This document shows positions 1,916-36,123 of a DNA stretch of 54,646 nt, piece after piece (within the stretch, counting starts at the first letter, position 1; each line of letters begins with the position of its first letter). The notes below the pieces were generated by a model that made no database searches, had not been told where the DNA came from, and saw only the letters and a list, made by a program, of their open reading frames with translations. The stretch is from a virus: positions 1 to 54,646 of IMG/VR virus record IMGVR_UViG_3300045988_087663. One strand, 5' to 3'. The translations under genes were made by a program, and so were the position numbers.

Positions 1916-2058
1916 GTTGCGAGTTGGATAAAAGATAATTTAATATATAACAAAAATATCCTTGTTATAAATAGGTGTACCTTTTCGTACACAACCAACT
2001 TTTTTATTCAACTCGCAACTGATTAAAAAAGAAAGGTACATCTATTTATATCAAGGAT
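1916..2058 (+). promoter_or_regulatory. Two interleaved long inverted repeats in the leader of the initiator-like gene (candidate origin, operator or RNA switch)
   Basis: A 1916-1934 pairs with A' 1999-2019 (one G.U position). B 1958-1984 pairs with B' 2032-2058 (25/27). Order is A-B-A'-B'. Local hairpin GTGTAC/GTACAC at about 1975-1993. Confidence 0.6.
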
Positions 2059-2082
2059 TTTTTAATTGAAAGGAGTATTATT

Positions 2083-2895
2083 TTGTCAGTCATAAGGGTA
2101 GAAAAAACAAAGAATTATACAGTTATGAGCAACTATCATTTAAAAGAAAGAAATATGTCTTTAAAAGCTAAAGGACTATTATCTTTGATGTTATCTTTAC
2201 CTGATAATTGGGATTATTCGATCGCAGGGCTAGTTGCAATCTGTAAAGAAAATGAGACAGCTATAAAGTCAACATTAAAAGAGTTGAAAGAGTTTGGTTA
2301 TGTCCGCATTGAAAAAATAATGCCGGATAAGACAGAATCCGGACGGATTGAATATGTTTACAATATTTTTGAAAAACCGAAACAAGAGGGTAAAAAACAA
2401 GGTGTAGAAAATCTACCCCTAGAAAATCAACCACTAGAAAATCAAGTACAATTAAATACTAAACAATCAAATACTAATAAAACAAATACTAAAGAAAAGA
2501 AAAAAAATAATACAAAAAAAGATTTTTCAGATATGATTCTAAAGATATGTTTAGAAAATGATATAGAAGATGATGTTAGTATAGAACTTATAGAGAATTT
2601 TTTAACTGAAATGAAAATAAAAACAAAAGGAGCAATAGAAGCAAATATAGCAAAAGTAGCAGGTAAATCTAAATCAATTATAGAGAAGTGTATCAAGACA
2701 AGCTATGAAAGAAATTATAAATACATCACACCGCCGGAATGGTTACAGAACAAGAACAATTCTTATAATGGAACCAGTAAATGCTCAAAAGAATTGGCTT
2801 GGAGAACACATGAAGAAATGGAAGAGTCAGAAAAGAAAAGACAAGAATTTTTTGAAAAAGTAAGAAACAATGATCCATCAATACATCATTTTTAA
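2083..2895 (+). CDS. Replication initiator / replisome-organizer-like winged-helix protein
   Basis: TTG start after AAAGGAG. N-terminus VEKTKNYTVMSNYHLKERNMSLKAKGLLSLMLSLPDNWDYSIAGL is typical of Firmicutes phage/plasmid initiator HTH domains. Sits upstream of the loader and helicase. Confidence 0.6.
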   Translation: MSVIRVEKTKNYTVMSNYHLKERNMSLKAKGLLSLMLSLPDNWDYSIAGLVAICKENETAIKSTLKELKEFGYVRIEKIMPDKTESGRIEYVYNIFEKPKQEGKKQGVENLPLENQPLENQVQLNTKQSNTNKTNTKEKKKNNTKKDFSDMILKICLENDIEDDVSIELIENFLTEMKIKTKGAIEANIAKVAGKSKSIIEKCIKTSYERNYKYITPPEWLQNKNNSYNGTSKCSKELAWRTHEEMEESEKKRQEFFEKVRNNDPSIHHF

Positions 2896-2908
2896 AGGAG
2901 GAATAAAA

Positions 2909-3268
2909 ATGGCATATAAAGGAGCATATAAGGCTAAAGATGAAAAGTATCTGAAAGAATTGGTTCTGGGTTGTATAACTGATGAACCTACAAGACTCAG
3001 TTCCACTAAAATAGCAGATTACCTTGGCATAAGTGCAAGAGACGTTCGTCTACTAGTGCAGAAGTTAAGAGATGACGGCTACCCAATATGTGCTACACCA
3101 GAGCAAGGATACTGGATGGCAAGAACAAGCTTGGATATGAATGATACAATGAGTAAGCTAAAATCACACATCGAGAATAGCATAGATACCTATAATTCAC
3201 TTGTGGAAAGTCAAAATGAATTAAAACGAAAGGAAGGAAATAATGAATATACAGAGTTGCTGGTATAA
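2909..3268 (+). CDS. Winged-helix DNA-binding protein
   Basis: ATG 2909 after AAAGGAGG. LSSTKIADYLGISARDVRLLVQKLRDDGYPI resembles HTH_11/DeoR-type wHTH. Confidence 0.5.
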   Translation: MAYKGAYKAKDEKYLKELVLGCITDEPTRLSSTKIADYLGISARDVRLLVQKLRDDGYPICATPEQGYWMARTSLDMNDTMSKLKSHIENSIDTYNSLVESQNELKRKEGNNEYTELLV

Positions 3269-3905
3269 GAGAATATGTACGGAACAATGCTCAGAAAACT
3301 GCATAAGGTATAAGCTGATGTATTCATTATTCAAGCAATCTAATCTTCCGGAAGCTTTGTGGGATTATAAAGAGCTTGTATGTCATGAAAAAGATTTACA
3401 GGTTTATAAGAAACTACAAGCAAAATCAGATAATATTTTGAATTTTATTGCAAATGGCAATAATTTATACATTTACTCAGAAAACTGCGGAAATGGCAAG
3501 ACTACATGGGCTATTAGATTGATGTATTCCTACTTCGATAAGATATGGCATAAGAGTTGTTTTGATTGCAAGGCGTTGTTTGTCAGCGTTCCTAAATTTT
3601 TGTATAATTGTAAGCGTTCTATTTCACAAGACGTAAAAGGCTTTGAAGAATTATGTAATCTTATAAGCGAGGTAGATTTGGTTATATGGGATGATATAGG
3701 AGAAATGAAAGCAAGTGACTATGAGCATCAAATATTATTTCAGTATATTGATGACAGAATCAATTCAAAGAAAAGCAACATATATACAAGCAATAAGAAC
3801 AAAGAACAGCTTGAAGATGTATTGGGTGTAAGACTTGCAAGCCGGATTTATAATTGTTCTGAGTGTATAGAATTTTTAGAAGAAGATAAGAGAGGTAAAT
3901 ACTGA
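3243..3905 (+). CDS. DnaC/IstB-like AAA+ helicase loader
   Basis: Walker A SENCGNGKTT, Walker B DLVIWDDIGE. Directly upstream of and overlapping the DnaB-like gene. Confidence 0.7.
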   Translation: MNIQSCWYKRICTEQCSENCIRYKLMYSLFKQSNLPEALWDYKELVCHEKDLQVYKKLQAKSDNILNFIANGNNLYIYSENCGNGKTTWAIRLMYSYFDKIWHKSCFDCKALFVSVPKFLYNCKRSISQDVKGFEELCNLISEVDLVIWDDIGEMKASDYEHQILFQYIDDRINSKKSNIYTSNKNKEQLEDVLGVRLASRIYNCSECIEFLEEDKRGKY

Positions 3906-5176
3906 TGGTAGAATTACAGATTTTGAACCGAGTGCTAAAAGACAAAAATACTTCTCTTTTAGATTTGAATGACATAACAAGAGATTATTTCAATCAATAT
4001 CAAGAAGAATATGACTACATAATGGAACACAAGCAAGAATATGGAAATGTTCCAGATTTGGAAACATTCCTAGCAAAGTTCCAGGATTTTGATGTAGTCA
4101 ATGTATCTGAAAGCACTGAATATCTTGTAAATACTTTTAGAGAAGAATATCTATATTCCCAGTCGGTTCCAGTGCTCACAAAGATGGCGGAACTATTACA
4201 GACAGACGCCTATTCAGCAGTAGACTATCTTAAATCAAAATTGCCGGAATTAAAAATTGATGGAGCAGTAAAAGGTACTGACATTATATCACAAGCAAAG
4301 GAAAGGCTTGAAGAGTGGAAAGAAACAAAAGATAATCAAGATACACACTTTATAGCAAGCGGATTTGAAGAGATAGATACAGATCTGGGAGGATGGCATA
4401 AAGGGGAGGAGCTTGTAGTTTTATTTGCACGAACAGGACAAGGAAAATCTTGGGTGCTTATTAAAATGTTAGAACACGCATGGAAAGTATATCATGCAAG
4501 AGTAGGACTTTTAGAGCCGGAAATGTCAGCAAGTAAAACAGGATATAGATTTGATACAGTACATCAACATATATCATCAAAAGCACTGTATAAAGGTGAA
4601 GATGTGCAGGGCTATGAAAAGTATATAAATAAGTTAGCTGACGATGGTACTCCATTCTATGTTGCACACCCTAAAGATTTTCAAAAGAAAGTAACAGTTT
4701 CAAAATTGAAAAGCTGGTGTGAATCAAATAAATTGGATATTCTTGCAATAGATGGTATCTCTTATCTGCATGATGAACGAGGAAAAAGAGGAGATAATAA
4801 AACAACACAGTTGACGAACATATCTGAAGATTTAATGCAGTTGAGTATTGACTTAAAAATACCTGTGTTAGTAGTTGTGCAGTCAAATAGAGAGTGTGTA
4901 CAAAATGAAGATTTACAATTAGACAATATTAGGGATTCTGATGGAATTGCTTATAACGCATCAATCGTTCTTTCAATTCAGCAAAAAGAAGAAGGCTTGC
5001 AAATACAGGATGTGAAAGCAAGAAATTCAAAAGTTGGAATTAAATGGGTTTATGCCTGGGATACAGATAAAGGTACTTTTGACTATATCCCTAACCCGAA
5101 AAAAGGAAAAGAAGACGATGAAAAAAGCGAAGATTTAAGGCGTAGATATCATGATAGAGAAAGTGAGGAATATTAA
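3905..5176 (+). CDS. dnaB: Replicative DNA helicase (DnaB family)
   Basis: 423 aa. Walker A ARTGQGKSW, RecA-like C-terminal domain, N-terminal DnaB-like helical domain. Confidence 0.8.
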   Translation: MVELQILNRVLKDKNTSLLDLNDITRDYFNQYQEEYDYIMEHKQEYGNVPDLETFLAKFQDFDVVNVSESTEYLVNTFREEYLYSQSVPVLTKMAELLQTDAYSAVDYLKSKLPELKIDGAVKGTDIISQAKERLEEWKETKDNQDTHFIASGFEEIDTDLGGWHKGEELVVLFARTGQGKSWVLIKMLEHAWKVYHARVGLLEPEMSASKTGYRFDTVHQHISSKALYKGEDVQGYEKYINKLADDGTPFYVAHPKDFQKKVTVSKLKSWCESNKLDILAIDGISYLHDERGKRGDNKTTQLTNISEDLMQLSIDLKIPVLVVVQSNRECVQNEDLQLDNIRDSDGIAYNASIVLSIQQKEEGLQIQDVKARNSKVGIKWVYAWDTDKGTFDYIPNPKKGKEDDEKSEDLRRRYHDRESEEY

Positions 5177-7868: not shown

Positions 7869-7907
7869 AAAACAATGTGAAGCGATAACACATATAAACA
7901 CTAATAT

Positions 7908-7979
7908 AGCCCTATAGCCAAAAGGTAAGGCACAGGACTTTGACTCCTGCATTTACCGGTTCGACTCCAACTAGGGCTG
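7908..7979 (+). tRNA. tRNA-Gln(UUG)-like gene with a degenerate T-stem
   Basis: Acceptor AGCCCTA/TAGGGCT. Anticodon stem CAGGA/TCCTG with loop CTTTGAC (anticodon TTG 7940-7942). T-loop TTCGACT, but the T-stem ACCGG/CCAAC has only 2 Watson-Crick pairs. Confidence 0.5.
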
Positions 7980-8076
7980 TTATACCCTGGCAGACAAAAA
8001 GAAAAAAGCTCCTAGATATAGAAAATGCGGTGATTGGGGTATGAGACAGGAATAAAGCTGGGAATACTGTCACAAT

Positions 8077-8150
8077 GGAAGATTAGCTCAGCAGGTGAGA
8101 GCATCCGGCTCATAACCGGACGGTCATAGGTTCAAATCCTATATCTTCCA
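8077..8150 (+). tRNA. tRNA with CAU anticodon (Met, or Ile2 if lysidinylated)
   Basis: Acceptor GGAAGAT/ATCTTCC, D-stem GCTC/GAGC, anticodon stem TCCGG/CCGGA with loop CTCATAA (CAT 8111-8113), T-arm ATAGG-TTCAAAT-CCTAT. No encoded CCA. Confidence 0.85.
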
Positions 8151-8211
8151 CTCATAGAATATAGCTTCTGTGAAAAACTAAAACAACTAAAAAAGAAAGG
8201 AAAAAAGAATT

Positions 8212-8901: not shown

Positions 8902-11256
8902 ATGGCATTATCATTTGCAAGACCAAAAAGCAATGATAAGAATATAATCAAAAAATCCAAAACAGTAACAACAAGAACAAGTATTAAGAGCGGCGGAAAT
9001 AATCTAGCCGCTCAAATACAATCTATAGTTGCTATTGCTAATCAAAAATTAGCAGTACATAAGGATGATTATATTCTTATCAGAGAGCCCGACCAACTAT
9101 ATGAATATATGAAAGAAATGAAGCGAGTTGGGGAGGGTGCCTTAGATACAGAAACAACAGGATTAAATCCGTTACTTGTAGATATAGTTGGAGGCTGTAT
9201 TTATACACCAGGACAAAAAGCGGCATATATTCCAATCAATCATAAATCGTATATCACAGGTGTACGAACAAAGGAACAGATGGATGAGGAAACTGTTTCA
9301 AAGATTATGAAAGAGTTCTACAAGGATATTAGATGGATTTTTCATAATGCAAAATATGATATCCGGGTATGTAGAAAGACACTTGGAATTGATTTCAAGC
9401 CTTATTGGGATACAATGTTAGCGGCATACTGTATAGACGAAGAAGAAAGTCACAGACTGAAAGATTTGCACCTTAAATACTGCAATAGCAAAGATACAGA
9501 ATCTTTGACATTTGATACATTATTTAATGGTGTTACTTTCGATATGATACCAATATCCACAGCATATTTGTATGCGGCAGGTGACGCCATAAAGACATAT
9601 GAATTATATGAGTACCAAAAAACATTATTAAATAGAAGGGTTTTATCCGGCCCTTATAATGTGTTTTGGAATATTGAAATGCCACTTATTCCAGTTGTAG
9701 CAGATATGGAAGATAGAGGAGTATGTCTTGATTTTGATGTATGTAAAAATCTACATGAAAAATATCATAAGATAAGAGAAGAAAGACAAAAGCAAGCTGA
9801 TGAAGCCTTGGCAATGTATAAAGATGAAATTGATAATTATAGAATGGGTTCAACTTATGCTAATACTTACCCAGACGGTTCAACTGAATATTCAAATTCA
9901 CAAACAAGCAAGGGTAAAAAATGGGGACATACAAAAGTATTCAGTAACGCCAGTAAGCTATCTGACCCTATATCATTATCAAGTCCAACTCAGCTTGCAA
10001 TATTATTCTATGATATTTTAGGATTGGAAAGTCCGGATAAAAAAGCACCTAGAGGAACTGGTGAGGATATTTTAAAACACTTTGCACAAGGGAAAGAAAA
10101 GAATCTATGCGAAGCTATTTTAGGAATGAGAAATGTTGATAAGCTTCTTGGAACATATATTGACAAAATGCCTGATATAGCTCTTAAAGATGGAAGGGTT
10201 CATGCAAGTTATAATCAATATGGTGCAAAAACTGGTAGATTTAGTTCTCAGGACCCGAACCTACAGAATATCCCCTCGCACAACAAAGAGATTAGACAGA
10301 TGTTCAAAGCTCAAGATGGGTATGTACTTATAGGGTCTGATTTTAGCCAGCAGGAGCCAATGGTAACCGCTCATTTATCTGATGATAAAAAAATGCAAGA
10401 AGCATTTATAAATGGCAAGGATATATATGCAACAATTGCCGCACTTGCATTTCATAAAAAATATGAAGAGTGTAAAGAGTTTCGAGAAGATGGTACAGTA
10501 AACCCGGAGGGTAAGGAAAGAAGAACACAAGCTAAAAGCATAGTTCTTGGAATTTTGTATGGAAGACAAATCCCATCTATTGCGGAACAGCTTGGAGTAT
10601 CTACTAAGGAAGCACAAGCCATATATGATAAGGTTATAGCTTCATTCCCAGCACTTGGAAAGTTTATTGAAGATTCACAAGAAATGGCAAGAACTGAAGG
10701 ATATGTAACTACTGCATGGGGTAGACGTAGACACTTGAAAGATATGCAGTTAGAACGATATGAATTTTCCTATAGCGGAAAAGTAACTAACTTCGACCCT
10801 CTGGCATTTGGAAGTGAAGTATCAACAGAAGTTCCAAAAAAAGTAAAGGACAATTATATCAAACAGCTTGATAAGGCGTTTGGCTGGAAAAAGAAAAACG
10901 ATATAATTCAAAAAGCTTTATCAGAAGGAATTAAAATCAAAGACAATGGAGGATTTATAGCACAGGCGGAAAGACAATGCGTAAATGCTAGAGTTCAAGG
11001 TTCAGCGGCAGATATAACAAAGCTTGCTATGATTGCTATAAATAATGATGAAAGAATGAAAGAGCTTGATTTCCATTTGCTTATACAAGTACATGACGAG
11101 GTAATAGGAGAATGTCCTATTGAAAATGCAAAGGAAGCAGGAGAAAGACTTTCATATCTTATGAGAACAGCACCTAGTCATTTGATTAAACTTCCGTTCA
11201 AGTGTGATGTTGATTTCATGAAAAATTGGTATGGTGAAGAAGTTGAAATAAATTAA
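8902..11256 (+). CDS. polA: Family A DNA polymerase with 3'-5' exonuclease domain
   Basis: ExoI DTETTGL. Motif A SDFSQQEP, motif B RRTQAKSIVLGILYG, motif C IQVHDEVI. Confidence 0.9.
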   Translation: MALSFARPKSNDKNIIKKSKTVTTRTSIKSGGNNLAAQIQSIVAIANQKLAVHKDDYILIREPDQLYEYMKEMKRVGEGALDTETTGLNPLLVDIVGGCIYTPGQKAAYIPINHKSYITGVRTKEQMDEETVSKIMKEFYKDIRWIFHNAKYDIRVCRKTLGIDFKPYWDTMLAAYCIDEEESHRLKDLHLKYCNSKDTESLTFDTLFNGVTFDMIPISTAYLYAAGDAIKTYELYEYQKTLLNRRVLSGPYNVFWNIEMPLIPVVADMEDRGVCLDFDVCKNLHEKYHKIREERQKQADEALAMYKDEIDNYRMGSTYANTYPDGSTEYSNSQTSKGKKWGHTKVFSNASKLSDPISLSSPTQLAILFYDILGLESPDKKAPRGTGEDILKHFAQGKEKNLCEAILGMRNVDKLLGTYIDKMPDIALKDGRVHASYNQYGAKTGRFSSQDPNLQNIPSHNKEIRQMFKAQDGYVLIGSDFSQQEPMVTAHLSDDKKMQEAFINGKDIYATIAALAFHKKYEECKEFREDGTVNPEGKERRTQAKSIVLGILYGRQIPSIAEQLGVSTKEAQAIYDKVIASFPALGKFIEDSQEMARTEGYVTTAWGRRRHLKDMQLERYEFSYSGKVTNFDPLAFGSEVSTEVPKKVKDNYIKQLDKAFGWKKKNDIIQKALSEGIKIKDNGGFIAQAERQCVNARVQGSAADITKLAMIAINNDERMKELDFHLLIQVHDEVIGECPIENAKEAGERLSYLMRTAPSHLIKLPFKCDVDFMKNWYGEEVEIN

Positions 11257-16804: not shown

Positions 16805-17899
16805 ATGAAAGTAGTAACAAGCAGAATGAAAGATGCAGTAAACAAAGCAATCAAAGGAGCAGGATTTAATAATCTTATTCCTATTACATCAATGATAGGT
16901 ATTAAATTATCAGATGGAAAGTTACGGTTGCTTACAACGGACATGACAAATACACTTTGTATTATCATTGACAAGGTCTCCGGCGTGGATATGGATATCA
17001 CGGTTGATGCTGACAAGTTCGGAAAGTTGATTTCAAAGATCACTTCCGAGGACATTGAATTATTGGTTATTGACGATGTTTTATCAATCAAAGCCAACGG
17101 AAATTATAAGATTCCATTGATTTCAGACGAAGACGGACTTATTTCATTCCCAGATATTAAGCCATTAGATGATAAGAATGTGCAGTGTTCAACCAAACTT
17201 TCAAGTGTTATGCAGGCTTATAATATCAATAAATCAGCACTTGCAAAAACACTTGAGAATCCGTCTTTAACAGGTTATTATTGTGGAGATACTGTTATTA
17301 GTACGGATGCAAATGTCATTACATTCAATGGGTTTAAGATGTTTGATAATGAAGAACCTATTCTTATTTCCGCTCAACAGATGCAGTTATTAACATTGAA
17401 TACAAAGGAGGATATTGAAGTTTATATTGGAAAAACAGGTATTCAGTTCGTGACAGAAGATGTTGTGATTGATGGAGCATTGATGGAAGGAATTGAAGAT
17501 TTCCCAGCTAATGAAGTAAACGCTTATCTTGATGAAGCATTTACATCTTCTTGCAAAGTACCAAAAGATTTACTTCTTTCCGTACTTGATAGACTTGCAT
17601 TATTCATTGAACCGTATGACAAGAACGGAGCATATTTCACATTCGGAAGAAAGGGAATCAATATTCACAGTAAAAAGGATGCTTCAACAGAGACTATCAA
17701 CTATGTGGAAAGTAAGAACTTTGCACCATTTGTATGCTGTGTAGATATTCCAATGTTGAAGGAACAGTTGCAGGCTAATCCGGACGATACGGTGAAGATT
17801 TGCTATGGAAATGAAAATGCGTTGAAGATTGAAAGCGGAAAAGTGACACAGGTTATAGCATTGCTTGAAGATGAAGAACTTGACAATATGACAGAATAA
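16805..17899 (+). CDS. dnaN: DnaN-like sliding clamp (beta-clamp family)
   Basis: 364 aa. LRLLTTDMTNTL, VISTDANVITF, GALMEGIEDFP and LLSVLDRLALF are spaced as in the three DnaN domains. Confidence 0.65.
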   Translation: MKVVTSRMKDAVNKAIKGAGFNNLIPITSMIGIKLSDGKLRLLTTDMTNTLCIIIDKVSGVDMDITVDADKFGKLISKITSEDIELLVIDDVLSIKANGNYKIPLISDEDGLISFPDIKPLDDKNVQCSTKLSSVMQAYNINKSALAKTLENPSLTGYYCGDTVISTDANVITFNGFKMFDNEEPILISAQQMQLLTLNTKEDIEVYIGKTGIQFVTEDVVIDGALMEGIEDFPANEVNAYLDEAFTSSCKVPKDLLLSVLDRLALFIEPYDKNGAYFTFGRKGINIHSKKDASTETINYVESKNFAPFVCCVDIPMLKEQLQANPDDTVKICYGNENALKIESGKVTQVIALLEDEELDNMTE

Positions 17900-18022: not shown

Positions 18023-18445
18023 ATGGTTGTATGGAAATTCAATAATCTATACAAGGCGGATGCCGAAAAAGTATCGAAAGAGATTGAAAGTATATCAAAT
18101 GCAACACCATCAAGAATACTTGAATATGCAAGAAATGAGAACAGCGAATTGCATAAATGCTTTGAATGGGATGATACAGTAGCGGCGGAAAAGTATAGAT
18201 TGCAACAAGCAAGAAATATTGTTTGTAATCTTGTATATCAAGAAGAAAAGAAAGAAGAACCAACAAAATTAAGAGTATTCTATAACCAATCTTCAACAAA
18301 TACTTATCAACCTACTAGAGTGTTAGTAAGGAATGAAGATAGTTACAAGGAACTTTTAATGCAGGCAAAATCAGAGTTGAGAGCATTTAAGAATAAATAT
18401 AAAATGCTTACAGAATTGGAAGATATTTTCAATTTAATTGACTAA
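18023..18445 (+). CDS. Hypothetical protein
   Basis: ATG 18023 after AAAGGAG. 140 aa. FEWDDTVAAEKYRLQQARNIV motif, family not recognised. Confidence 0.6.
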   Translation: MVVWKFNNLYKADAEKVSKEIESISNATPSRILEYARNENSELHKCFEWDDTVAAEKYRLQQARNIVCNLVYQEEKKEEPTKLRVFYNQSSTNTYQPTRVLVRNEDSYKELLMQAKSELRAFKNKYKMLTELEDIFNLID

Positions 18446-18450
18446 TCATA

Positions 18451-18572
18451 ATGAGTTATACATTCAAATATCTGCATTGCAGATAAGACAGAAAAGAATA
18501 GCATGAGACATAATAGGACATGAAAAAACATTACAAAACAACACAATGCAGATATTTGAGTGTATAACTCAT
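18451..18572. repeat. Long imperfect inverted repeat unit 1 (29-nt arms)
   Basis: 18451-18479 ATGAGTTATACATTCAAATATCTGCATTG is the reverse complement of 18544-18572 except for one position. Inner palindrome TCTGCA-T-TGCAGA. Confidence 0.85.
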
Positions 18573-18626
18573 ACAACAAAACAGGACAAAATAATAAAGC
18601 AAAGAAAACTATAGCATATTACATTA

Positions 18627-18755
18627 CATTGATATCTTTAACATCTACTTTATAAGTAGATAACACAATATAAAACAAAATAGGATAGGGCATGACATTA
18701 CATCACAGAACATCACAAGACAATATTTATAAAGTAGATATTAAAGGTATCAATG
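18627..18755. repeat. Long imperfect inverted repeat unit 2 (27-nt arms)
   Basis: 18627-18653 vs 18729-18755, 25/27 complementary. Inner palindrome ATCTACTT-TA-AAGTAGAT. Loops of both units share ATAGGA..CATGA..CATTACA. Confidence 0.85.
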
Positions 18756-18781
18756 TTATATATTAAAGGAGGACAAATAAC

Positions 18782-19405
18782 ATGAAAACAGAAACTATTG
18801 AAATTAAGAGAATTGATGTAAAGCAGGTAACAGTTAAGATTGTGGGTGATGGAGATTTAATTCTTAACAAAATGAATGATGTTTCTACAAGACATCTTAC
18901 AGACCAGAGAAAAAACAAGGCAAAAGATATGGAAGTGCCTAACGAGTGGGAGCAGATTATTACAGCTATGCATTGGAGAGACGGAAAGCCAACAGATTTT
19001 AGTGAGCAGGGATTGATTGATGCTTTAAAGAATAATGCTCCGTGTATCACAGCATTTGGATTAAAGAAGTCATTTGGTGAGGCAGTTGTGAGAAATGAAA
19101 TTGATAAGTTTAAAACAAAATTTGACCCGTCAGTCAATATTATTGCAAAGGGAAATTTGGTTCCAATTAAGTTCACAGAACATTATATTGATGAAAAACT
19201 TATGTCACCTATGAGAGGAAAGCCTGTACTTGTAAGAATGAATAGATTTAGTGGATGGAGTGCAGAGTTTACAATTCAGTTCACAGAAAATGTATATTCA
19301 TTAGAACAGATTATCAACATTATCAACCTTGCAGGATTCGGGCTTGGAATTGGTAGCGGAAGAACTAGCGGATATGGAAGATATCATGTTGAAGAGGTAA
19401 GATAA
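18782..19405 (+). CDS. Hypothetical protein with a C-terminal RAMP/Cas6-like glycine-rich loop
   Basis: ..SLEQIINIINLAGFGLGIGSGRTSGYGRYHVEEVR. GIG-x5-GYG fits GhG-x5-GhG. TAATG overlap with the Cas4-like nuclease. Confidence 0.4.
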   Translation: MKTETIEIKRIDVKQVTVKIVGDGDLILNKMNDVSTRHLTDQRKNKAKDMEVPNEWEQIITAMHWRDGKPTDFSEQGLIDALKNNAPCITAFGLKKSFGEAVVRNEIDKFKTKFDPSVNIIAKGNLVPIKFTEHYIDEKLMSPMRGKPVLVRMNRFSGWSAEFTIQFTENVYSLEQIINIINLAGFGLGIGSGRTSGYGRYHVEEVR

Positions 19406-20202
19406 TGAGTAGAAGATTATTAAACTTAATCAATAACAATCAGCCACAACTTCCTGCAAATAAGAAGTTTCTGGCGGATGTAATGAGTTGTATTGAAAGA
19501 ACAGAGCAAGAAAGAAGAAGAAAAGGAAGTAATTATTATAAGCCTTCTTCCTTGCATTGTATGAGGAATATGTATTTTACTCGTACAAAAGCCCCACAAG
19601 ACCCGGAAGTATCCGAGTACAATTCAACAGGAATGGCAGATACTGGGACAGACCGACACGAAAGAATACAAAATGTACTTTTGCATATGCAGGAGATGGG
19701 CTATGATTGGAAATATCTCGATGTTGCTGAATATGTGAAGCAGAAACAGAAGTTCGGTAAATGTCGAAATTTAATAATAAAAGGTACACAAGGAGCGGAA
19801 ACGCATCTTATAGATACTGCATTGAATCTATCTTTTAGATGTGATGGCATTATCCGTAGATTGTCTACAAATGAGGATTATCTGTTTGAGTTCAAGAATG
19901 TTGTTTCATTCAAATATAACCAGTTGAATGACCATTGTTTAGAACAGCATCACAATCAGGTAATCTGCTACTGTACTGCGTTGGATTTGGACAAGGCTTT
20001 TGTGACGTATGAAAACCGTGATATCTGTACGTTAGAAGTACCTGAGATTTTCCATGTAACAAAGGATATGAAAGATTGGCTTGTTGGTTATATAAGCGAG
20101 TGTGAAGGTTATGTGGAAAGAATGATTGCACCGCCAAAAACGGAAGATACAAAGAACTGTCGGTGGTGCAGATACAAAAATATATGTAGAAAGGTTGGAT
20201 AA
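19405..20202 (+). CDS. Cas4/RecB-like PD-(D/E)XK nuclease with 4-Cys Fe-S cluster signature
   Basis: N-terminal Cys (SSLHC). LFEFKNV (E-x-K), QVICY (QxxxY), C-terminal CRWCRYKNIC (C-x2-C-x5-C). Confidence 0.75.
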   Translation: MSRRLLNLINNNQPQLPANKKFLADVMSCIERTEQERRRKGSNYYKPSSLHCMRNMYFTRTKAPQDPEVSEYNSTGMADTGTDRHERIQNVLLHMQEMGYDWKYLDVAEYVKQKQKFGKCRNLIIKGTQGAETHLIDTALNLSFRCDGIIRRLSTNEDYLFEFKNVVSFKYNQLNDHCLEQHHNQVICYCTALDLDKAFVTYENRDICTLEVPEIFHVTKDMKDWLVGYISECEGYVERMIAPPKTEDTKNCRWCRYKNICRKVG

Positions 20203-20204
20203 AA

Positions 20205-20468
20205 ATGAGTAATTATGTTTTATTCGATGTACAAGACATGGATGTAGATTCAGAATTAAATAATCTTGTAGAAATAGGGGGCTCTTACTGTCATGAACCA
20301 TACTTAATAATGTCAAAGATGACATTTAAGCTCATTAGAATGCTATCTAAAGGATATGATGCTAAAGATAATTCATGGGTATATAGCGGAGATTCGAGCT
20401 GGGTACCCTATGAATTTCAAATCGCAATTGATAAAAGAATACCTTTTGGGGAGGTGAAAGTTAAATAA
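20205..20468 (+). CDS. Hypothetical protein
   Basis: 87-aa ORF tightly packed between the nuclease and the resolvase. Confidence 0.55.
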   Translation: MSNYVLFDVQDMDVDSELNNLVEIGGSYCHEPYLIMSKMTFKLIRMLSKGYDAKDNSWVYSGDSSWVPYEFQIAIDKRIPFGEVKVK

Positions 20469-20932
20469 TGATATATATAGGAATTGACCCGGGAAAAAAT
20501 GGTGGGATTGCTTTCATGTGTGATAACAATAATAGTAATAAAACATATCCATACTCTGATGATGTTTTAATAAACAATCTTGGATTTATATATGCACAAG
20601 ATTTGCAGGATGATGTGATATGCTATCTAGAACACGTTCACGCAATGCCTAAGCAGGGAGTATCAAGCACTTTCAATTTTGGAATGAATTTTGGTTTTAT
20701 TCAAGGCGTGTTAAAAGCATATGGCATTCCCTATGAGCTTGTTACACCGCAGAAGTGGAAGAAAGAATTTTCCTGCACGTCCGACAAAAATACATCCATT
20801 GAAGTATGCAAGAGATTATTTCCTAGTGTTAATTTAAAAGCAACGGAAAGATGCAGAAAAGACCATGACGGAATGGCGGAAGCGTTGTTGATAGCAGAAT
20901 ACGGAAGAAGACATTATGGAAGGAGTTTATAA
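20468..20932 (+). CDS. RuvC-like Holliday junction resolvase
   Basis: MIYIGIDPGKNGGIAF (catalytic Asp). YLEHVHAMPKQGVSSTFNFG. DHDGMAEALLIAEYG. Confidence 0.75.
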   Translation: MIYIGIDPGKNGGIAFMCDNNNSNKTYPYSDDVLINNLGFIYAQDLQDDVICYLEHVHAMPKQGVSSTFNFGMNFGFIQGVLKAYGIPYELVTPQKWKKEFSCTSDKNTSIEVCKRLFPSVNLKATERCRKDHDGMAEALLIAEYGRRHYGRSL

Positions 20933-21631: not shown

Positions 21632-21910
21632 ATGGAAAATATATGTAAAAATTGTGAAAATTGTATTGCAAGTAATATGTGCGAAGCTGTTGTGAGTGGT
21701 TGTGATGAAACTATAGATTATGCAAACACAATTTATAATAAGGCTATTGACGATTTACGTAATGAATTAAAAACTCATTACACAGAATACAATATTGATA
21801 GCGTCTTAAGAGATACAGATTATTACTCTTATACAACAGCCTGCAATTATCTTGAAGATTATATTGATGAAATAACAGAGAAGTTGAAGAAAGGTGGAGA
21901 AGATGAGTAA
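21632..21910 (+). CDS. Hypothetical Cys-rich protein
   Basis: CKNCENC..C..C N-terminus, 92 aa. Confidence 0.55.
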   Translation: MENICKNCENCIASNMCEAVVSGCDETIDYANTIYNKAIDDLRNELKTHYTEYNIDSVLRDTDYYSYTTACNYLEDYIDEITEKLKKGGEDE

Positions 21911-22922
21911 TCTTGATTTAATTATAAAAGACCTAAATAAGAAAATGAAAGTAGGAAATATTCAGCTAGGCGTTGATTTTCAAGAAGTACAGAAGATTCC
22001 ATTTTCATCTTGTAGATTAAACTATATGACATATGGTGGAATCCCAGTTGGAAGAATAGCAGAATTTTATGGAGCAGACGGGAGTGGTAAAACAACTACC
22101 GCTATTGATGTAGCAGGAAATGCCCAAAAAATGTTTCCGGATAAAAAAGTGTTATTTGTAGATATTGAACACACTTTTGATTCTTGCTGGGCCACTAAAC
22201 TGGGCTTGAACTGCGATGACATTATATATCTTGACCCAGATAGTATGGGGGCGGAAGAAGTATTTAATATGATGATTGAGCTTATAGAAAGTGGAGAAAT
22301 AAGTCTATGCATATTAGATAGTATAGGTGCTATGGTATCAATGCAGGCAAACGAAAAGCAGATAGGGGAAAGAACTTATGGCGGAGTAAGTATGGCATTG
22401 ACTGAATTTAGCAAGAAAATAACCCCAATTCTTGCAAGAACACAAACTGCTTTTATTGGAATAAATCAAGTCCGAGATGATATGAATAGTATGTATGGGG
22501 GAACAACAACGACAGGTGGAAGAGCGTGGCGGCATAGTTGTAGTACAAGGCTTGAATTTAGAAAAGGAAACTACATTGATGAAAAAGGCAATAATCTTTC
22601 AAGGGCTTGTGAGAATCCGGCAGGAAATATAGTAAATGTAGCATTGGTAAAATCTAAAGTTTGCCGACCAGATAGAAAAGTAGGTTTTTACACTTTGAAA
22701 TATTTGGAAGGAATTGATTATGTATCAGACGCAGTAGACGTAGCAATCAAGATGGGATTGGTTGTGCAAGGTGGAGCATGGTTCTCTTTAGTTGATATTG
22801 AAACAGGTGAAATATTAAGCAAGTATCAAGGTAAATCAAAGTTAGTTGAGTACCTAAAGGAAAATGATAACTATACAAATTTCTATTCAAAATTGGAGAA
22901 ATTATTAAATGAAGAATCTTAG
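21903..22922 (+). CDS. recA: RecA-family recombinase
   Basis: Walker A GADGSGKTT, LFVDIEHTFD, Walker B-like ISLCILDSIGAM. ATG 21903 (track ORF starts at GTG 21894). Confidence 0.8.
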   Translation: MSNLDLIIKDLNKKMKVGNIQLGVDFQEVQKIPFSSCRLNYMTYGGIPVGRIAEFYGADGSGKTTTAIDVAGNAQKMFPDKKVLFVDIEHTFDSCWATKLGLNCDDIIYLDPDSMGAEEVFNMMIELIESGEISLCILDSIGAMVSMQANEKQIGERTYGGVSMALTEFSKKITPILARTQTAFIGINQVRDDMNSMYGGTTTTGGRAWRHSCSTRLEFRKGNYIDEKGNNLSRACENPAGNIVNVALVKSKVCRPDRKVGFYTLKYLEGIDYVSDAVDVAIKMGLVVQGGAWFSLVDIETGEILSKYQGKSKLVEYLKENDNYTNFYSKLEKLLNEES

Positions 22923-35286: not shown

Positions 35287-35314
35287 TGTTAGTTATCAAC
35301 AATTTGTGTATAAT
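35286..35314 (+). promoter_or_regulatory. Sigma-A-type promoter (TTGTTA-17-TATAAT) with TTATCAACA in the spacer
   Basis: -35 35286-35291, -10 35309-35314. Confidence 0.55.
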
Positions 35315-35378
35315 TTGTGTGTAAGTTAAGTTATCAACAAGTTATACACAAACTACTAACATTTTCACAAAAAACTAC

Positions 35379-35407
35379 TTTACAAATGTTGATAGTTTGT
35401 GTATAAT
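35379..35407 (+). promoter_or_regulatory. Sigma-A-type promoter (TTTACA-17-TATAAT) with an inverted box in the spacer
   Basis: -35 35379-35384, -10 35402-35407. Followed by 5' hairpin AACCCG-GAAAG-CGGGTT 35427-35443. Confidence 0.6.
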
Positions 35408-35478
35408 ATGTTTATAAGTAATCCACAACCCGGAAAGCGGGTTAAATAAATCATTTTAGATTATAGGAGGAAAGGTAA

Positions 35479-36123
35479 ATGACTAACATTTATGAGATTT
35501 TCAAAAAATTTGGCATAACACTGCCAGAGGACAAAAAAGAAGAATTTGACAAAGTGTTGGCGGAGAATTATAAGACAGTAAATGAAGTCAATAATTTGAA
35601 AACAACGCTGGAGAAAGCCAAGCAGGACGCTGAGACTTACAAGAATAAGTATGATTCCGATATACAGCAGAGGGATGCAGATATAAAAGATTTGCAAACC
35701 AAGCTGAATGCTGCAGGCACAGATTCGGAAAAGTTGAAGAGTTTACAAAAAGACTTTGAAACATTGCAGTCCACTTATGACACAGCTAAAACAGATTATG
35801 AAAAGCAGTTGGCTAAACAAGCCTATGAGTTTGCTGTCCAGAGGAAAGTGTCTGACATAAAGTTTTCATCAAATTCAGCAAAAAAAGCATTTATTGCGGA
35901 TGCATTGAAAGAGGAAATGAAGCTCAAAGATGGTGAATTGCAAGGATTTGACGAATTTTTGGAATCTTATAAAAAGTCAGATGCTGGTGCCTTTGTAACA
36001 GAGAATAAAGATGATCCTAAACCTGATGATACACCGAAGCCACAGTTTGCATCAAAATCAACAGGGAAGGATCCGGAACCACCGCAGAAACCAGAGAAAC
36101 AGGAAAGACCAAGGATTTGGTAA
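35479..36123 (+). CDS. Scaffolding protein (phage GP20-like)
   Basis: MTNIYEIFKKFGITLPEDKKEEFDKVLAENYKT.., coiled-coil, immediately upstream of the capsid gene. Confidence 0.7.
   Translation: MTNIYEIFKKFGITLPEDKKEEFDKVLAENYKTVNEVNNLKTTLEKAKQDAETYKNKYDSDIQQRDADIKDLQTKLNAAGTDSEKLKSLQKDFETLQSTYDTAKTDYEKQLAKQAYEFAVQRKVSDIKFSSNSAKKAFIADALKEEMKLKDGELQGFDEFLESYKKSDAGAFVTENKDDPKPDDTPKPQFASKSTGKDPEPPQKPEKQERPRIW

What the first reader, a model, noticed from the sequence alone, without database searches (positions are those of the whole stretch)
18782..20202. RAMP-like protein translationally coupled to a Cas4-like Fe-S nuclease, with no CRISPR context
Seen in sequence. The 207-aa ORF ends with a helix (SLEQIINIINLAG), then FGLGIGSGRTSGYGRY, then a short strand. 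GIG-SGRTS-GYG matches the GhG-x5-GhG glycine-rich loop placed between the last helix and the last strand of Cas6/RAMP RRM folds.

Its stop overlaps (TAATG) a 265-aa PD-(D/E)XK nuclease with SSLHC...CRWCRYKNIC, EFK and QVICY, which is a Cas4/AddB-type signature.

No cas1/cas2 genes or repeat array exist in the genome.

Inference. One possibility is an unusual recombination pair (exonuclease plus a new partner replacing RecT/Erf). The other is a RAMP-type RNA/DNA-processing enzyme, possibly acting on the adjacent hairpin region.
Basis: partly seen in the sequence, partly recalled or inferred. Interest (0 to 1): 0.65.

Follow-up and report, generated by a model that had tools for sequence, protein, structure and literature searches.

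The report
Phage VIPR guide-RNA system, variant repeat code
The "RAMP-like" gene is a phage Vipr protein, part of a recently described CRISPR-like RNA-guided system. Its real partners are the upstream 140-aa gene and the "hairpin" region, which is an array of 5-base-repeat guides, and one of those guides is hard-wired against the DNA polymerase gene of rival phages. The Cas4-like nuclease is probably just a neighbour.

Summary
ORF 18782..19405 has a RAMP (Cas7-like) fold with a glycine loop, and its stop overlaps a Cas4-type nuclease gene. There is no CRISPR array in the window.

A profile of the 207-aa protein's family matches the solved SUSP1 Vipr protein (E=1e-14), so this is a VIPR system (Viral Interference Programmable Repeat, 2026 preprints).

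The conserved module is ORF140 (18023..18445), the intergenic array (18446..18781) and vipr. The Cas4-like gene follows vipr only in near-identical phages. Elsewhere it belongs to a clamp–Cas4–resolvase–UvsX backbone.

The array holds three tracts of 5-nt units, A-Y-A-N-N. Two are hypervariable cassettes inside long inverted repeats. One (T2) is invariant. Read with the published "NN, skip 1" code, T2 spells codon positions 1–2 of QKGKIAELAL, motif B of a family A DNA polymerase. It hits ≥120 viral contigs and ≥120 Bacillota genomes, against 1 hit with a skip-2 control and none in this phage.

The fixed motif is A-Y-A, not the published GGY. All four residues that read the two G's in SUSP1 Vipr are replaced.

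Verdict: a new variant of a known kind. No RNA expression, binding or silencing was tested.

The parts
18023..18445 (+). ORF140: the conserved accessory (vap-like) gene of the module. 140 aa, mostly helical, function unknown.
   Evidence: A homolog flanks vipr in 35 of 38 related loci. The order is ORF140-array-vipr in close clades and vipr-array-ORF140 in distant ones. It hits phrog_15946 (unknown function) at 3e-16. The family has 3842 homologs. There is no Pfam hit, no PDB sequence hit and no fold match. It is not similar to the SUSP-type vap, Moogle gp44 (hhalign probability 0.3%).
18446..18781 (+). vrRNA-like array: an alpha unit, the constant T2 tract and a beta unit, followed by the Shine-Dalgarno sequence of vipr.
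   Evidence: This is the only place in the window, on either strand, that matches any published vrRNA repeat pattern. A.A.. pentamer runs reach 12 units, against a maximum of 8 in shuffles. Across 22 unique relatives the scaffolds are conserved and the tracts hypervariable. No Rfam family matches.
18451..18572 (+). Alpha unit: inverted-repeat arms 18451-18479 and 18544-18572 enclosing guide tract T1.
   Evidence: The arms are 29 nt and 97% complementary, with a 64-nt loop. The single non-Watson-Crick pair is U.G on the + strand. The predicted fold is a long stem with the tract in the loop.
18483..18547 (+). Guide tract T1: 13 units of A-Y-A-N-N, hypervariable between phages.
   Evidence: 12 of 13 units are in phase. 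The sequence differs among phages with identical Vipr protein, and related cassettes occur in L049 and L055. No target was found.
18571..18620 (+). Guide tract T2: 10 code units, invariant in the clade. The dinucleotides CA AA GG AA AT GC GA CT GC TT correspond to codon positions 1-2 of QKGKIAELAL.
   Evidence: It is part of the 12-unit exact run 18571-18630. The skip-1 pattern hits >=120 IMG/VR contigs and >=120 bacterial genomes, all but one in PolA motif B. The skip-2 control gives 1 hit. The code positions are conserved in 27 loci, with only CT/TT changes at Leu codons.
18617..18765 (+). Beta unit: inverted-repeat arms 18617-18658 and 18724-18765 enclosing guide tract T3.
   Evidence: The arms are 42 nt and 86% complementary, with a 65-nt loop. 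A triplet in the stem covaries: GAT/ATC in 21 units and ACC/GGT in 15.
18660..18726 (+). Guide tract T3: 13 units of A-Y-A-N-N, hypervariable.
   Evidence: 12 of 13 units are in phase. It contains the YNNNG x7 match when read on the minus strand. The number of beta units varies from 1 to 2 between phages. No convincing target was found.
18782..19405 (+). vipr: a minimal RAMP (Cas7-like RRM, thumb and G-loop), predicted to be the guide-binding filament subunit.
   Evidence: The family profile matches PDB 36pp SUSP1 Vipr at E=1e-14 over residues 3-188. Foldseek hits are all Cas7-type RAMPs. The positions that read the two G's are N29, S192, M153 and G193, where SUSP1 has H17, D177, R138 and W178. 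R194 (= R179) is kept.
19405..20202 (+). Cas4-like PD-(D/E)XK/Fe-S exonuclease. It is a neighbour from the replication and recombination backbone and is probably not part of the system.
   Evidence: The motifs are present and it hits phrog_1706 at 8e-35. It has no homolog in the 38 first-set vipr loci. Homologs in Dp-1 and phiCTP1 lie between the DnaN clamp and the Holliday-junction resolvase.

Best explanation
This is a phage-encoded VIPR system. The module is ORF140 (18023..18445), a guide array (18446..18781) and vipr (18782..19405).

Proposed mechanism:
- The array is transcribed, most likely on the coding strand.
- It yields three guide RNAs built from 5-nt units. Each unit has a fixed A-Y-A trinucleotide followed by two free 'code' bases.
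- One Vipr protomer is predicted to bind each unit. It sequesters the fixed trinucleotide and presents the two code bases.
- The resulting filament reads double-stranded DNA as NN-skip-NN-skip. In coding DNA this means the first two bases of consecutive codons.
- Binding blocks expression of the target.

Two guides (T1, T3) are exchangeable, hypervariable cassettes held in the loops of long stems. The third (T2) is fixed in the lineage and is addressed to the motif B coding segment (QKGKIAELAL) of a family A DNA polymerase. Many other phages and prophages of gut Bacillota carry that polymerase, and this phage's own polymerase lacks the site. The system is therefore a weapon of inter-phage competition.

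The overlapping Cas4-like gene belongs to the clamp-Cas4-resolvase-UvsX replication and recombination backbone, into which the cassette was inserted.

Shown here: homology and fold of Vipr; periodicity, hypervariability and scaffolds of the array; co-occurrence of ORF140; the T2-to-PolA match and its controls; co-variation of the fixed motif with the base-reading residues.

Inferred: transcription, RNA strand and processing, RNP formation, DNA binding and silencing.
For: Protein:
- The family profile (69 diverse members) hits the solved SUSP1 Vipr chain at E=1e-14 over nearly its full length.
- The AlphaFold model matches only Cas7-type RAMPs.
- The family has 584 clusters at 50% identity.

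Canonical relatives:
- Members at about 30% identity carry textbook (YNNGG)n arrays on the coding strand between vipr and the ORF140 homolog.

Array in the window and its clade:
- It holds the only hit in the window to published vrRNA patterns.
- Runs of A.A.. units reach 12, against a maximum of 8 in 200 window shuffles and 2000 local shuffles.
- Logo of 48 unique guides (557 units): A 0.89, C/T 0.88, A 0.99, then two positions at 1.82 and 1.94 bits. In-phase units are 88.5%, against 44% in shuffled guides.
- Guides have 9-15 units.
- Guides differ between phages with identical Vipr protein, and cassettes are shuffled between contigs.
- Stems covary.

Code:
- T2 read with skip 1 gives >=120 viral contigs and >=120 Bacillota genomes. 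239 of these 240 hits fall in the QKGK(I/M)AEL.. motif B segment of PF00476/phrog_17 polymerases, with every wobble variant represented.
- The skip-2 control gives 1 hit. Two variable guides of equal information content give 1-2 chance hits each.
- T2 code bases are invariant in 27 loci, apart from CT/TT changes at Leu codons.
- The phage's own PolA has motif B RRTQAKSIVLGILYG. The best self match is 15/20, and there are zero target sites in any vipr locus.

Protein-RNA co-variation:
- The SUSP1 residues that read G1 and G2 (H17, D177, R138, W178; paper) are H/E/R/W in all 8 proteins with GGY arrays.
- They are N/S/M or L/G in all 8 proteins with A-Y-A arrays.
- All 19 family representatives at >=34% identity share the non-GG class.

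Strand:
- G.U pairs on plus versus minus: 14 to 0 in clade B stems and 3 to 0 in intermediate relatives.
- The window beta stem has a U.G pair on the plus strand.

Cas4:
Against: - No expression, processing, binding or silencing data exist for this clade.
- No target was found for the window's two variable guides or for 48 guides tested against 2 Mb of gut (pro)phage DNA.
- The fixed motif is not GGY, so the published structural mechanism is transferred by analogy.
- The strand is not settled in clade A itself. A recurrent C.A site in the beta stem would be G.U on the minus strand. Minus-strand folds are more stable because of composition. The minus-strand reading T-R-T-N-N is closer to GGY and to the preprint's 'YNNNG' class.
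- A generic period-5 Fourier scan did not flag the region.
- T2 is not enclosed by its own inverted repeat, so how it would be excised is unclear.
- In near-identical phages the Cas4-like gene is always overlapped with vipr, and other exonucleases (DUF3799, YqaJ) lie downstream of vipr in two further lineages. A functional link to a nuclease is therefore not excluded.
Confidence: 0.8

Rival explanations
1. Nuclease-armed VIPR. In this phage lineage the translationally coupled Cas4-like exonuclease has been recruited as the effector or accessory of Vipr, as the predicted nucleases are in published VIPR types III-V. Targets would then be degraded rather than only silenced.
For: The stop and start codons overlap, and the arrangement is kept in all 97-98% relatives that reach downstream. 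The preprint reports VIPR types with nuclease or helicase vaps. PD-(D/E)XK or YqaJ exonucleases lie within about 0.2-0.6 kb downstream of vipr in two other lineages.
Against: No Cas4-like homolog occurs in the 38 loci spanning 30-91% Vipr identity. The same gene in Dp-1 and phiCTP1 sits between the clamp and the resolvase, without any Vipr, and overlaps the preceding gene there too. Within the species, Cas4 is more diverged (85-94%) than Vipr (97%). The preprint associates nuclease-bearing types with cellular defence islands, not lytic-phage replication modules.
Confidence: 0.13
2. Cas6-like processing enzyme. The RAMP is an endoribonuclease that cuts the adjacent stem-loops, rather than a guide-presenting filament subunit.
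For: There is a RAMP fold with a G-loop, a weak PADLOC Cas6 hit (E=0.03) and long conserved stems flanking each variable tract. How the guides are excised is unknown.
Against: All structural neighbours are Cas7-type backbone subunits, not Cas6. The protein is homologous over its full length to SUSP1 Vipr, which polymerises one protomer per repeat. The 5-nt periodicity with 9-15 units per tract fits a filament, not a single cleavage site.
Confidence: 0.05
3. The intergenic region is a DNA-level element, such as a replication origin, iterons or an operator array, in the replication module, and the T2-to-PolA match is coincidental.
For: The region is AT-rich (A 49%) with palindromes and inverted repeats, and it lies among replication genes.
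Against: Only two of every five positions vary, and they vary freely between phages with identical proteins. The region occupies the same place as canonical vrRNA arrays in relatives. G.U asymmetry in the stems points to RNA. A coincidental perfect 18-20-base gapped match to a motif present in >=240 sequences, with a negative skip-2 control, is very unlikely.
Confidence: 0.02

Closest known systems
VIPR type II (Escherichia phage SUSP1 / P. fulva prophage). bioRxiv 10.64898/2026.04.26.720920 and 10.64898/2026.04.26.720927; PDB 36pp.
   Same: Both are phage-encoded. Both use a minimal single-RRM RAMP of about 200 aa, here homologous by profile (E=1e-14). Both have a small accessory gene and guide RNAs encoded in flanking intergenic DNA. 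Guides are made of 9-16 tandem 5-nt units with a fixed trinucleotide and two free bases. The 1-nt-skip code aligns skipped bases with codon wobble positions. Targets are in competing mobile elements, and there is no self-targeting.
   Different: The fixed motif is A-Y-A instead of GGY, and all four G-reading residues are replaced (N/S/M/G where SUSP1 has H/D/R/W). Variable guides sit in the loops of 29-42-bp inverted repeats instead of preceding a 3' pseudoknot tail. The accessory protein is unrelated to the SUSP-type vap (hhalign probability 0.3%). The module includes an invariant guide against a polymerase motif. The gene order is vap-array-vipr.
Canonical-GGY VIPR loci of the same protein family in gut (pro)phages (clade C here; e.g. 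L008, L028).
   Same: They share the Vipr family (about 30% identity) and the ORF140-family accessory gene (31-40% identity). The array lies between the two genes, on the coding strand.
   Different: Their arrays are (YNNGG)n with GGCAGGYA-type delimiters and no long inverted repeats. The gene order is vipr-array-vap. Their proteins keep the H/E/R/W G-reading residues.
Class 1 CRISPR backbone RAMPs (Cas7 family: Csm3, Cmr4, type VII Cas7).
   Same: They share the fold (Foldseek E about 1e-5 to 1e-6, TM about 0.5) and the G-loop between the last helix and last strand. They bind one protomer per fixed-length RNA segment, with periodic base flipping.
   Different: Here there is no CRISPR array, no Cas5/Cas6/large subunit and no adaptation genes. 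The register is 5 nt with three flipped bases, instead of 6 nt with one. The protein is a single-RRM minimal protein.
Phage Cas4-like/RecB-like exonucleases (Streptococcus phage Dp-1 gp11, Clostridium phage phiCTP1 gp54; phrog_1706).
   Same: The 265-aa ORF is 33-38% identical to these, has the same PD-(D/E)XK plus 4-Cys motifs, and has the same downstream neighbours (Holliday-junction resolvase, UvsX-like recombinase).
   Different: In the window a VIPR cassette is inserted between the clamp gene and this gene, so the gene now overlaps vipr instead of dnaN.

Membership tests
VIPR system | Vipr protein: a minimal RAMP (RRM core, thumb, G-loop) homologous to described Vipr proteins. | tested here: met
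   The family profile hits PDB 36pp SUSP1 Vipr at E=1e-14, covering chain residues 3-188. A single-sequence search gives E=0.014. Foldseek returns only Cas7-type RAMPs.
VIPR system | Minimal non-CRISPR locus: vipr plus one accessory gene (vap), mostly in phages. | tested here: met
   An ORF140 homolog is adjacent in 35 of 38 loci. The context is a phage replication module. There is no CRISPR array. Whether ORF140 equals one of the published vap1-6 could not be checked, because the figures and data tables are not held. It is not the SUSP-type vap.
VIPR system | Intergenic tandem 5-nt repeats in which a fixed trinucleotide alternates with a hypervariable dinucleotide, 9-16 units per RNA. | tested here: met
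   Runs exceed all shuffles. The logo has positions 1-3 fixed and positions 4-5 at about 1.9 bits. Guides have 9-15 units. Code bases are hypervariable among phages with identical Vipr.
VIPR system | The fixed motif is GGY, or one of the published variants NNNGG, YNNNG or NNNNG. | tested here: not met
   On the favoured (+) strand the motif is A-Y-A. Only on the minus strand does 61% of units fit YNNNG. The GG-reading residues are replaced.
VIPR system | A conserved structured 3' tail (a pseudoknot in the SUSP1 clade) caps each guide. | tested here: inconclusive
   Conserved scaffolds exist, but they are long inverted repeats enclosing the guide, together with a small 5' palindromic hairpin. 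No pseudoknot analysis was possible.
VIPR system | Guides specify DNA targets by the 1-nt-skip rule, in competing mobile elements and not in the phage itself. | tested here: met
   T2 gives >=120 plus >=120 hits in PolA motif B with skip 1, against 1 hit with skip 2. There is no self site. No targets were found for the variable guides.
VIPR system | vrRNAs are expressed, co-purify with Vipr, and the RNP binds or silences DNA. | not testable with these tools
   This needs small-RNA sequencing, pull-down and reporter assays.
CRISPR-Cas (Cas5/6/7 RAMP as part of an effector) | Association with a CRISPR repeat-spacer array and other cas genes. | tested here: not met
   The window has no array. The neighbours are replication and recombination genes. 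cas1/cas2 were not profile-searched over all ORFs.
Cas4 (TIGR00372 / PF01930) | PD-(D/E)XK motifs plus a 4-Cys Fe-S cluster, and a score above the curated cut-off. | tested here: inconclusive
   All motifs are present. The scores are below the cut-offs: 21.5 against 65 bits, and 15.2 against 22.7 bits. It is best called a Cas4-like phage exonuclease (phrog_1706, 8e-35).
Single-strand annealing proteins (RecT/Erf/Rad52-like) as partner of the exonuclease | An SSAP fold or SSAP profile match for the 207-aa ORF. | tested here: not met
   No SSAP family appears in the Pfam, PHROG or NCBIfam searches. The fold is RAMP.

The most novel reading that the evidence does not exclude
This clade is a previously uncharacterised VIPR subtype in which the repeat 'handle' has been re-specified from GGY to A-Y-A by replacing the four base-reading residues. 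That would make it a natural orthogonal RAMP-RNA recognition code.

In this subtype the guides are delivered as exchangeable cassettes in stem-loops. The phage also carries a germline-fixed guide that reads a conserved protein motif (polymerase motif B) at the level of codon positions 1-2. Such a guide is insensitive to synonymous escape mutations and would disable the replication of a very broad set of rival (pro)phages.
Probability: 0.45. Interest if true: 0.8.

Novelty: new variant of a known kind. Interest (0 to 1): 0.66.

Why it matters
VIPR was described only in 2026, as a possible ancestor of CRISPR effectors and as a new logic for programmable DNA recognition.

If the reading here is right, this locus adds three things:
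- The protein-handle recognition can be rewired in nature (GGY to A-Y-A, with four coordinated residue changes). This gives a direct route to orthogonal engineered systems and a test of the structural model.
- A guide can be aimed at an amino-acid motif rather than a nucleotide sequence, because the skipped base coincides with the wobble position. One fixed guide would then cover hundreds of diverged polymerase genes, with no synonymous escape.
- The system is abundant in pig and human gut phages of Clostridia, where phage-phage conflict is largely unexplored.

It also corrects a tempting but wrong 'RAMP + Cas4' pairing.

Tried and rejected
- **Generic period-5 Fourier power over the window.** It did not flag the array, because A-rich code positions dilute the signal. 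I replaced it with motif-run statistics.
- **Self-targeting.** All 48 guides tested against the window under skip 0-3 give the same result as permuted controls. T2 matches its own genome at background level.
- **Targets of the variable guides.** Nine-unit cores of T1 and T3 in IMG/VR give 1-2 hits that do not extend. All guides against 2 Mb of (pro)phage loci show no signal. A degenerate pattern for two related beta guides gives 1 hit at 8/12 units.
- **Metagenome scan with T3.** One contig (L309) matches 25 of 26 code bases. It is not phage-like and the match lies in a 50-aa frame, so I judged it unconvincing.
- **ORF140 function.** No Pfam, PDB or fold match, and no similarity to the SUSP-type vap.
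- **Minimum free energy comparison of strands.** It is confounded by composition in clade A and in L314.
- **Reaching intermediate clades in IMG/VR.** This failed. Two were obtained through the look-up of encoding contigs instead.
- **Rfam.** Nothing matched.
- **GenBank phages.** No relative of this phage.
- **Recombination-pair and Cas6-processing readings.** Rejected on fold, homology and gene-neighbourhood evidence.
Full report
**1. Observation**

The two ORFs are exactly as described: 18782..19405 (207 aa) and 19405..20202 (265 aa), with the stop and start codons overlapping in ATAATG.

The glycine-rich C-terminus (GFGLGIGSGRTSGYGRYHV) is a real RAMP G-loop.
- Pfam RAMPs hits aa 128-201 at E=8.8e-4, just under its gathering score.
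- The AlphaFold model built on a 57-sequence alignment has pLDDT 81 and pTM 0.79.
- That model finds only Cas7-type RAMP subunits in the PDB: Cmr4 6s6b_I at 2.8e-6, many Csm3 chains, and type VII Cas7, all at probability 1.0.

The second ORF carries all Cas4/AddB-type motifs (C52, D147..E162xK164, Q185xxxY, C252xxCx5C261). It matches phrog_1706 at 8e-35, but it scores far below the curated Cas4 cut-offs.

There is no CRISPR-type array in the window.

**2. Identity of the 207-aa protein**

A sequence search of the PDB gave a weak hit to 'SUSP1 Vipr protein' (36pp, E=0.014). This led to two 2026 bioRxiv preprints describing VIPR (Viral Interference Programmable Repeat) systems. According to those papers:
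- A minimal phage-encoded RAMP (Vipr) polymerises one protomer per 5-nt repeat on 'vrRNAs'.
- The vrRNAs consist of alternating GGY and NN segments.
- The complex binds double-stranded DNA using only the NN bases, skipping one target base between them.
- The targets lie in competing mobile elements.

The window protein has 2450 homologs in the 5.8-billion-protein set and 584 clusters at 50% identity. None of the listed homologs carries a name beyond "hypothetical protein". A profile of 69 diverse members matches the SUSP1 Vipr chain at E=1e-14 over residues 3-188. Membership of the Vipr protein family is therefore established by sequence, and the RAMP fold by structure prediction.

**3. What travels with it**

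I collected 60 related loci and searched them with the window's proteins.

- The Cas4-like gene has no homolog in any of the first 38 loci, which span 30-91% Vipr identity.
- A homolog of the upstream 140-aa ORF (18023..18445) is present in 35 of those 38. The three exceptions are short or truncated loci.
- The order is ORF140-intergenic-vipr in the close clades (A, >=88% identity; B, about 70%).
- The order is vipr-intergenic-ORF140 in the distant clade (C, about 30%).
- Only phages with 97-98% identical Vipr, from pig and human gut metagenomes, keep the overlapping Cas4-like gene. There it is more diverged (85-94%) than Vipr.

In Streptococcus phage Dp-1 and Clostridium phage phiCTP1 the Cas4-like homolog (33-38% identity) lies between the DnaN clamp and a Holliday-junction resolvase, with a UvsX-like recombinase downstream in Dp-1. 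In Dp-1 it overlaps the stop codon of dnaN.

The window has the same backbone: clamp 16805..17899, Cas4-like gene, resolvase 20468..20932, RecA/UvsX 21894..22922. The ORF140-array-vipr cassette is inserted between the clamp and the Cas4-like gene. In 88-93% relatives the cassette sits elsewhere, between the primase and the tRNAs/PolA. So the translational coupling is best explained by the insertion point. It does not indicate a functional pair.

**4. The 'hairpin region' is a guide array**

*Statistics.*
- In the whole window, on both strands, the only match to any published vrRNA repeat pattern is YNNNG x7 at 18691..18725 on the minus strand, immediately upstream of vipr. A run of 7 was never reached in 200 dinucleotide shuffles.
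- On the plus strand the region contains runs of A.A.. pentamers of 12, 8 and 6+6 units. The maximum was 8 in 200 window shuffles and in 2000 local shuffles.

*Scaffolds.*
- Two long inverted repeats each enclose one tract in a 64-65-nt loop: 29-nt arms at 97% complementarity and 42-nt arms at 86%.

*Comparison of 22 unique arrays from clade A.*
- There is a conserved alpha scaffold, an invariant middle tract (T2) and one or two beta scaffolds.
- Within the scaffolds the guide tracts differ completely, even between phages whose Vipr proteins are identical.
- The same cassettes recur in different combinations.

*Logo over 48 unique guides, 557 units.*

| Position | Content |
|---|---|
| 1 | A 0.89 |
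| 2 | C 0.61, T 0.27 |
| 3 | A 0.99 |
| 4 | 1.82 bits of entropy |
| 5 | 1.94 bits of entropy |

- 88.5% of units are in phase, against 44% in shuffled guides.
- Tracts have 9-15 units, as in published vrRNAs.

*Stem covariation.*
- A triplet in the beta stem is GAT/ATC in 21 units and ACC/GGT in 15, with one recombinant mismatch.

*Relatives.*
- Clade C relatives carry textbook (YNNGG)n arrays in the equivalent position on the coding strand.
- A 51%-identity relative has x-C-A-N-N units between GC-rich stems.

**5. Protein and RNA motif change together**

The structural preprint assigns the contacts as follows:
- G1 of GGY is read by H17 and D177.
- G2 is read by R138 and W178.
- Y3 sits in a pocket that includes R179.

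In a MAFFT alignment:
- These positions are H/E/R/W in all eight clade C proteins with GGY arrays.
- They are N/S/M or L/G in all eight clade A and B proteins with A-Y-A arrays.
- The arginine is invariant throughout.

Across 69 family representatives, all 19 with >=34% identity to the window protein belong to the non-GG class. This co-variation is the strongest internal evidence that the A-Y-A tracts are the cognate RNA of this Vipr.

**6. Which strand**

| Evidence | Favours |
|---|---|
| G.U pairs in clade B stems: 14 if the plus strand is RNA, none if the minus strand is | plus |
| G.U pairs in two intermediate relatives: 3 on plus, 0 on minus | plus |
| Clade B plus-strand folds are 21-30 kcal/mol more stable | plus |
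| The window's own beta stem has a U.G wobble on the plus strand | plus |
| Canonical arrays of the family are on the coding strand | plus |
| A recurrent C.A site in clade A beta stems would be G.U on the minus strand | minus |
| The minus-strand reading (U-R-U-N-N) is chemically closer to GGY and to the preprint's 'YNNNG' class | minus |

I favour the plus strand at roughly 80%.

**7. Does the code work? The invariant tract T2**

*Searches.* I read the tracts with the published rule: code dinucleotides separated by one free base. I used nine units, which is 18 specified bases.
- The window's T3 and T1 guides hit 2 and 1 IMG/VR contigs. These hits do not extend over the rest of the guide, so they are chance matches.

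*What T2 matches.*
- All 120 hits are in one reading frame and encode QKGKIAELA; 115 read QKGKIAELALGY.
- Synonymous third positions of every kind are present. The commonest exact 26-mer occurs only 4 times.
- The ORFs are family A DNA polymerases of about 650-680 aa (PF00476 at 3e-24; phrog_17 at 1.8e-148). The site is motif B.

*Controls and wider distribution.*
- The same dinucleotides with a 2-nt skip give a single hit.
- A 10-unit pattern hits at least 120 bacterial genomes. These are overwhelmingly gut Clostridia and other Bacillota, and 119 of 120 are at RQKGK(I/M)AELALG.

*Self is spared.*
- The phage's own PolA (8902..11256) has motif B RRTQAKSIVLGILYG.
- The best T2 match in its genome is 15/20, which is background.
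- No vipr-bearing locus contains the site.

*Selection on the code bases.* Within 27 clade A loci, T2 varies only at fixed-motif positions 1-2. The exceptions are CT/TT changes at two leucine codons (unit 10 in the window, unit 8 in L041). These preserve the amino-acid-level match. That is the signature of selection on the code bases.

I conclude that T2 is a lineage-fixed guide aimed at the polymerase gene of rival (pro)phages, and that the skip-1 code holds for this A-Y-A variant.

**8. What remains open**

- No targets were found for the variable guides.
- ORF140 is a mostly helical protein with no recognisable fold or family.
- How the guides are excised is unknown. RNase III cleavage of the long stems is a guess.
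- Whether binding silences, blocks replication or recruits a nuclease is unknown.
- Whether the Cas4-like gene has been co-opted in this lineage is unknown. Exonucleases of two other families lie downstream of vipr in two further lineages.
- I could not see the preprint's figures or data tables, so I cannot exclude that this clade is already within one of its seven types. Its text mentions neither A-rich motifs, inverted-repeat scaffolds nor polymerase targets.

**9. Verdict**

The feature is a member of the recently described VIPR kind, but a distinct variant. It has a re-specified fixed motif with matching residue changes, stem-loop-embedded exchangeable guides, a different accessory protein, and a hard-wired anti-polymerase guide. 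All functional steps are inferred from sequence and from the published SUSP1 system.

Noticed in passing
window 19405..20202; L311 2358-3134; L314 2397-3328: Recombination-type exonucleases of three different families lie just downstream of vipr in three lineages: Cas4-like, DUF3799 and YqaJ. This could mean the VIPR cassette tends to sit at the head of the recombination module. It could also hint at a functional link with a nuclease.
   Followed up: partly
L044-L046, about 660-880 in each locus: Some near-identical phages carry an extra 62-aa HTH_17 (excisionase-like DNA-binding) ORF between ORF140 and the array.
   Followed up: no
window 7907..7980 and 8077..8151; L001, L002 and L005 about 4650-4950: The window encodes tRNA-Gln and tRNA-Met upstream of PolA. 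In 88-91% relatives, tRNA-like sequences directly follow vipr.
   Followed up: partly
window 18617..18765 and the beta units of L010, L040-L058: When two beta units are present, each has its own stem 'zip code' (ACC/GGT for the first, GAT/ATC for the second). This would favour pairing within a unit over pairing between units. L048 is a recombinant with mismatched arms.
   Followed up: yes
L309 2064..2102 (metagenome contig JFJP01057063.1): The window's T3 guide matches 25 of 26 code bases under the skip-1 rule. The contig does not look phage-like and the match lies in a 50-aa frame. It is probably chance, but I did not resolve it.
   Followed up: partly
L010 and L041 beta guides: Two related guides share the code series CC-?T-GC-AC-GA (P-L-A-T-E) and differ by TT versus CT at the leucine position. 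They then diverge as homologous protein segments would, which suggests guides track diverging coding targets.
   Followed up: partly
window 35303..35326 and 35396..35419: A two-copy 24-nt direct repeat (TTTGTGTATAATTTGTGTGTAAGT, 88% identity) spaced 93 nt apart lies in an intergenic stretch before the ORF at 35479. It is possibly a promoter or operator duplication.
   Followed up: no
L066 about 1994-4934: One of the targeted polymerase genes is 980 aa. It appears to carry an intein-like or homing-endonuclease-like insertion upstream of motif B.
   Followed up: no
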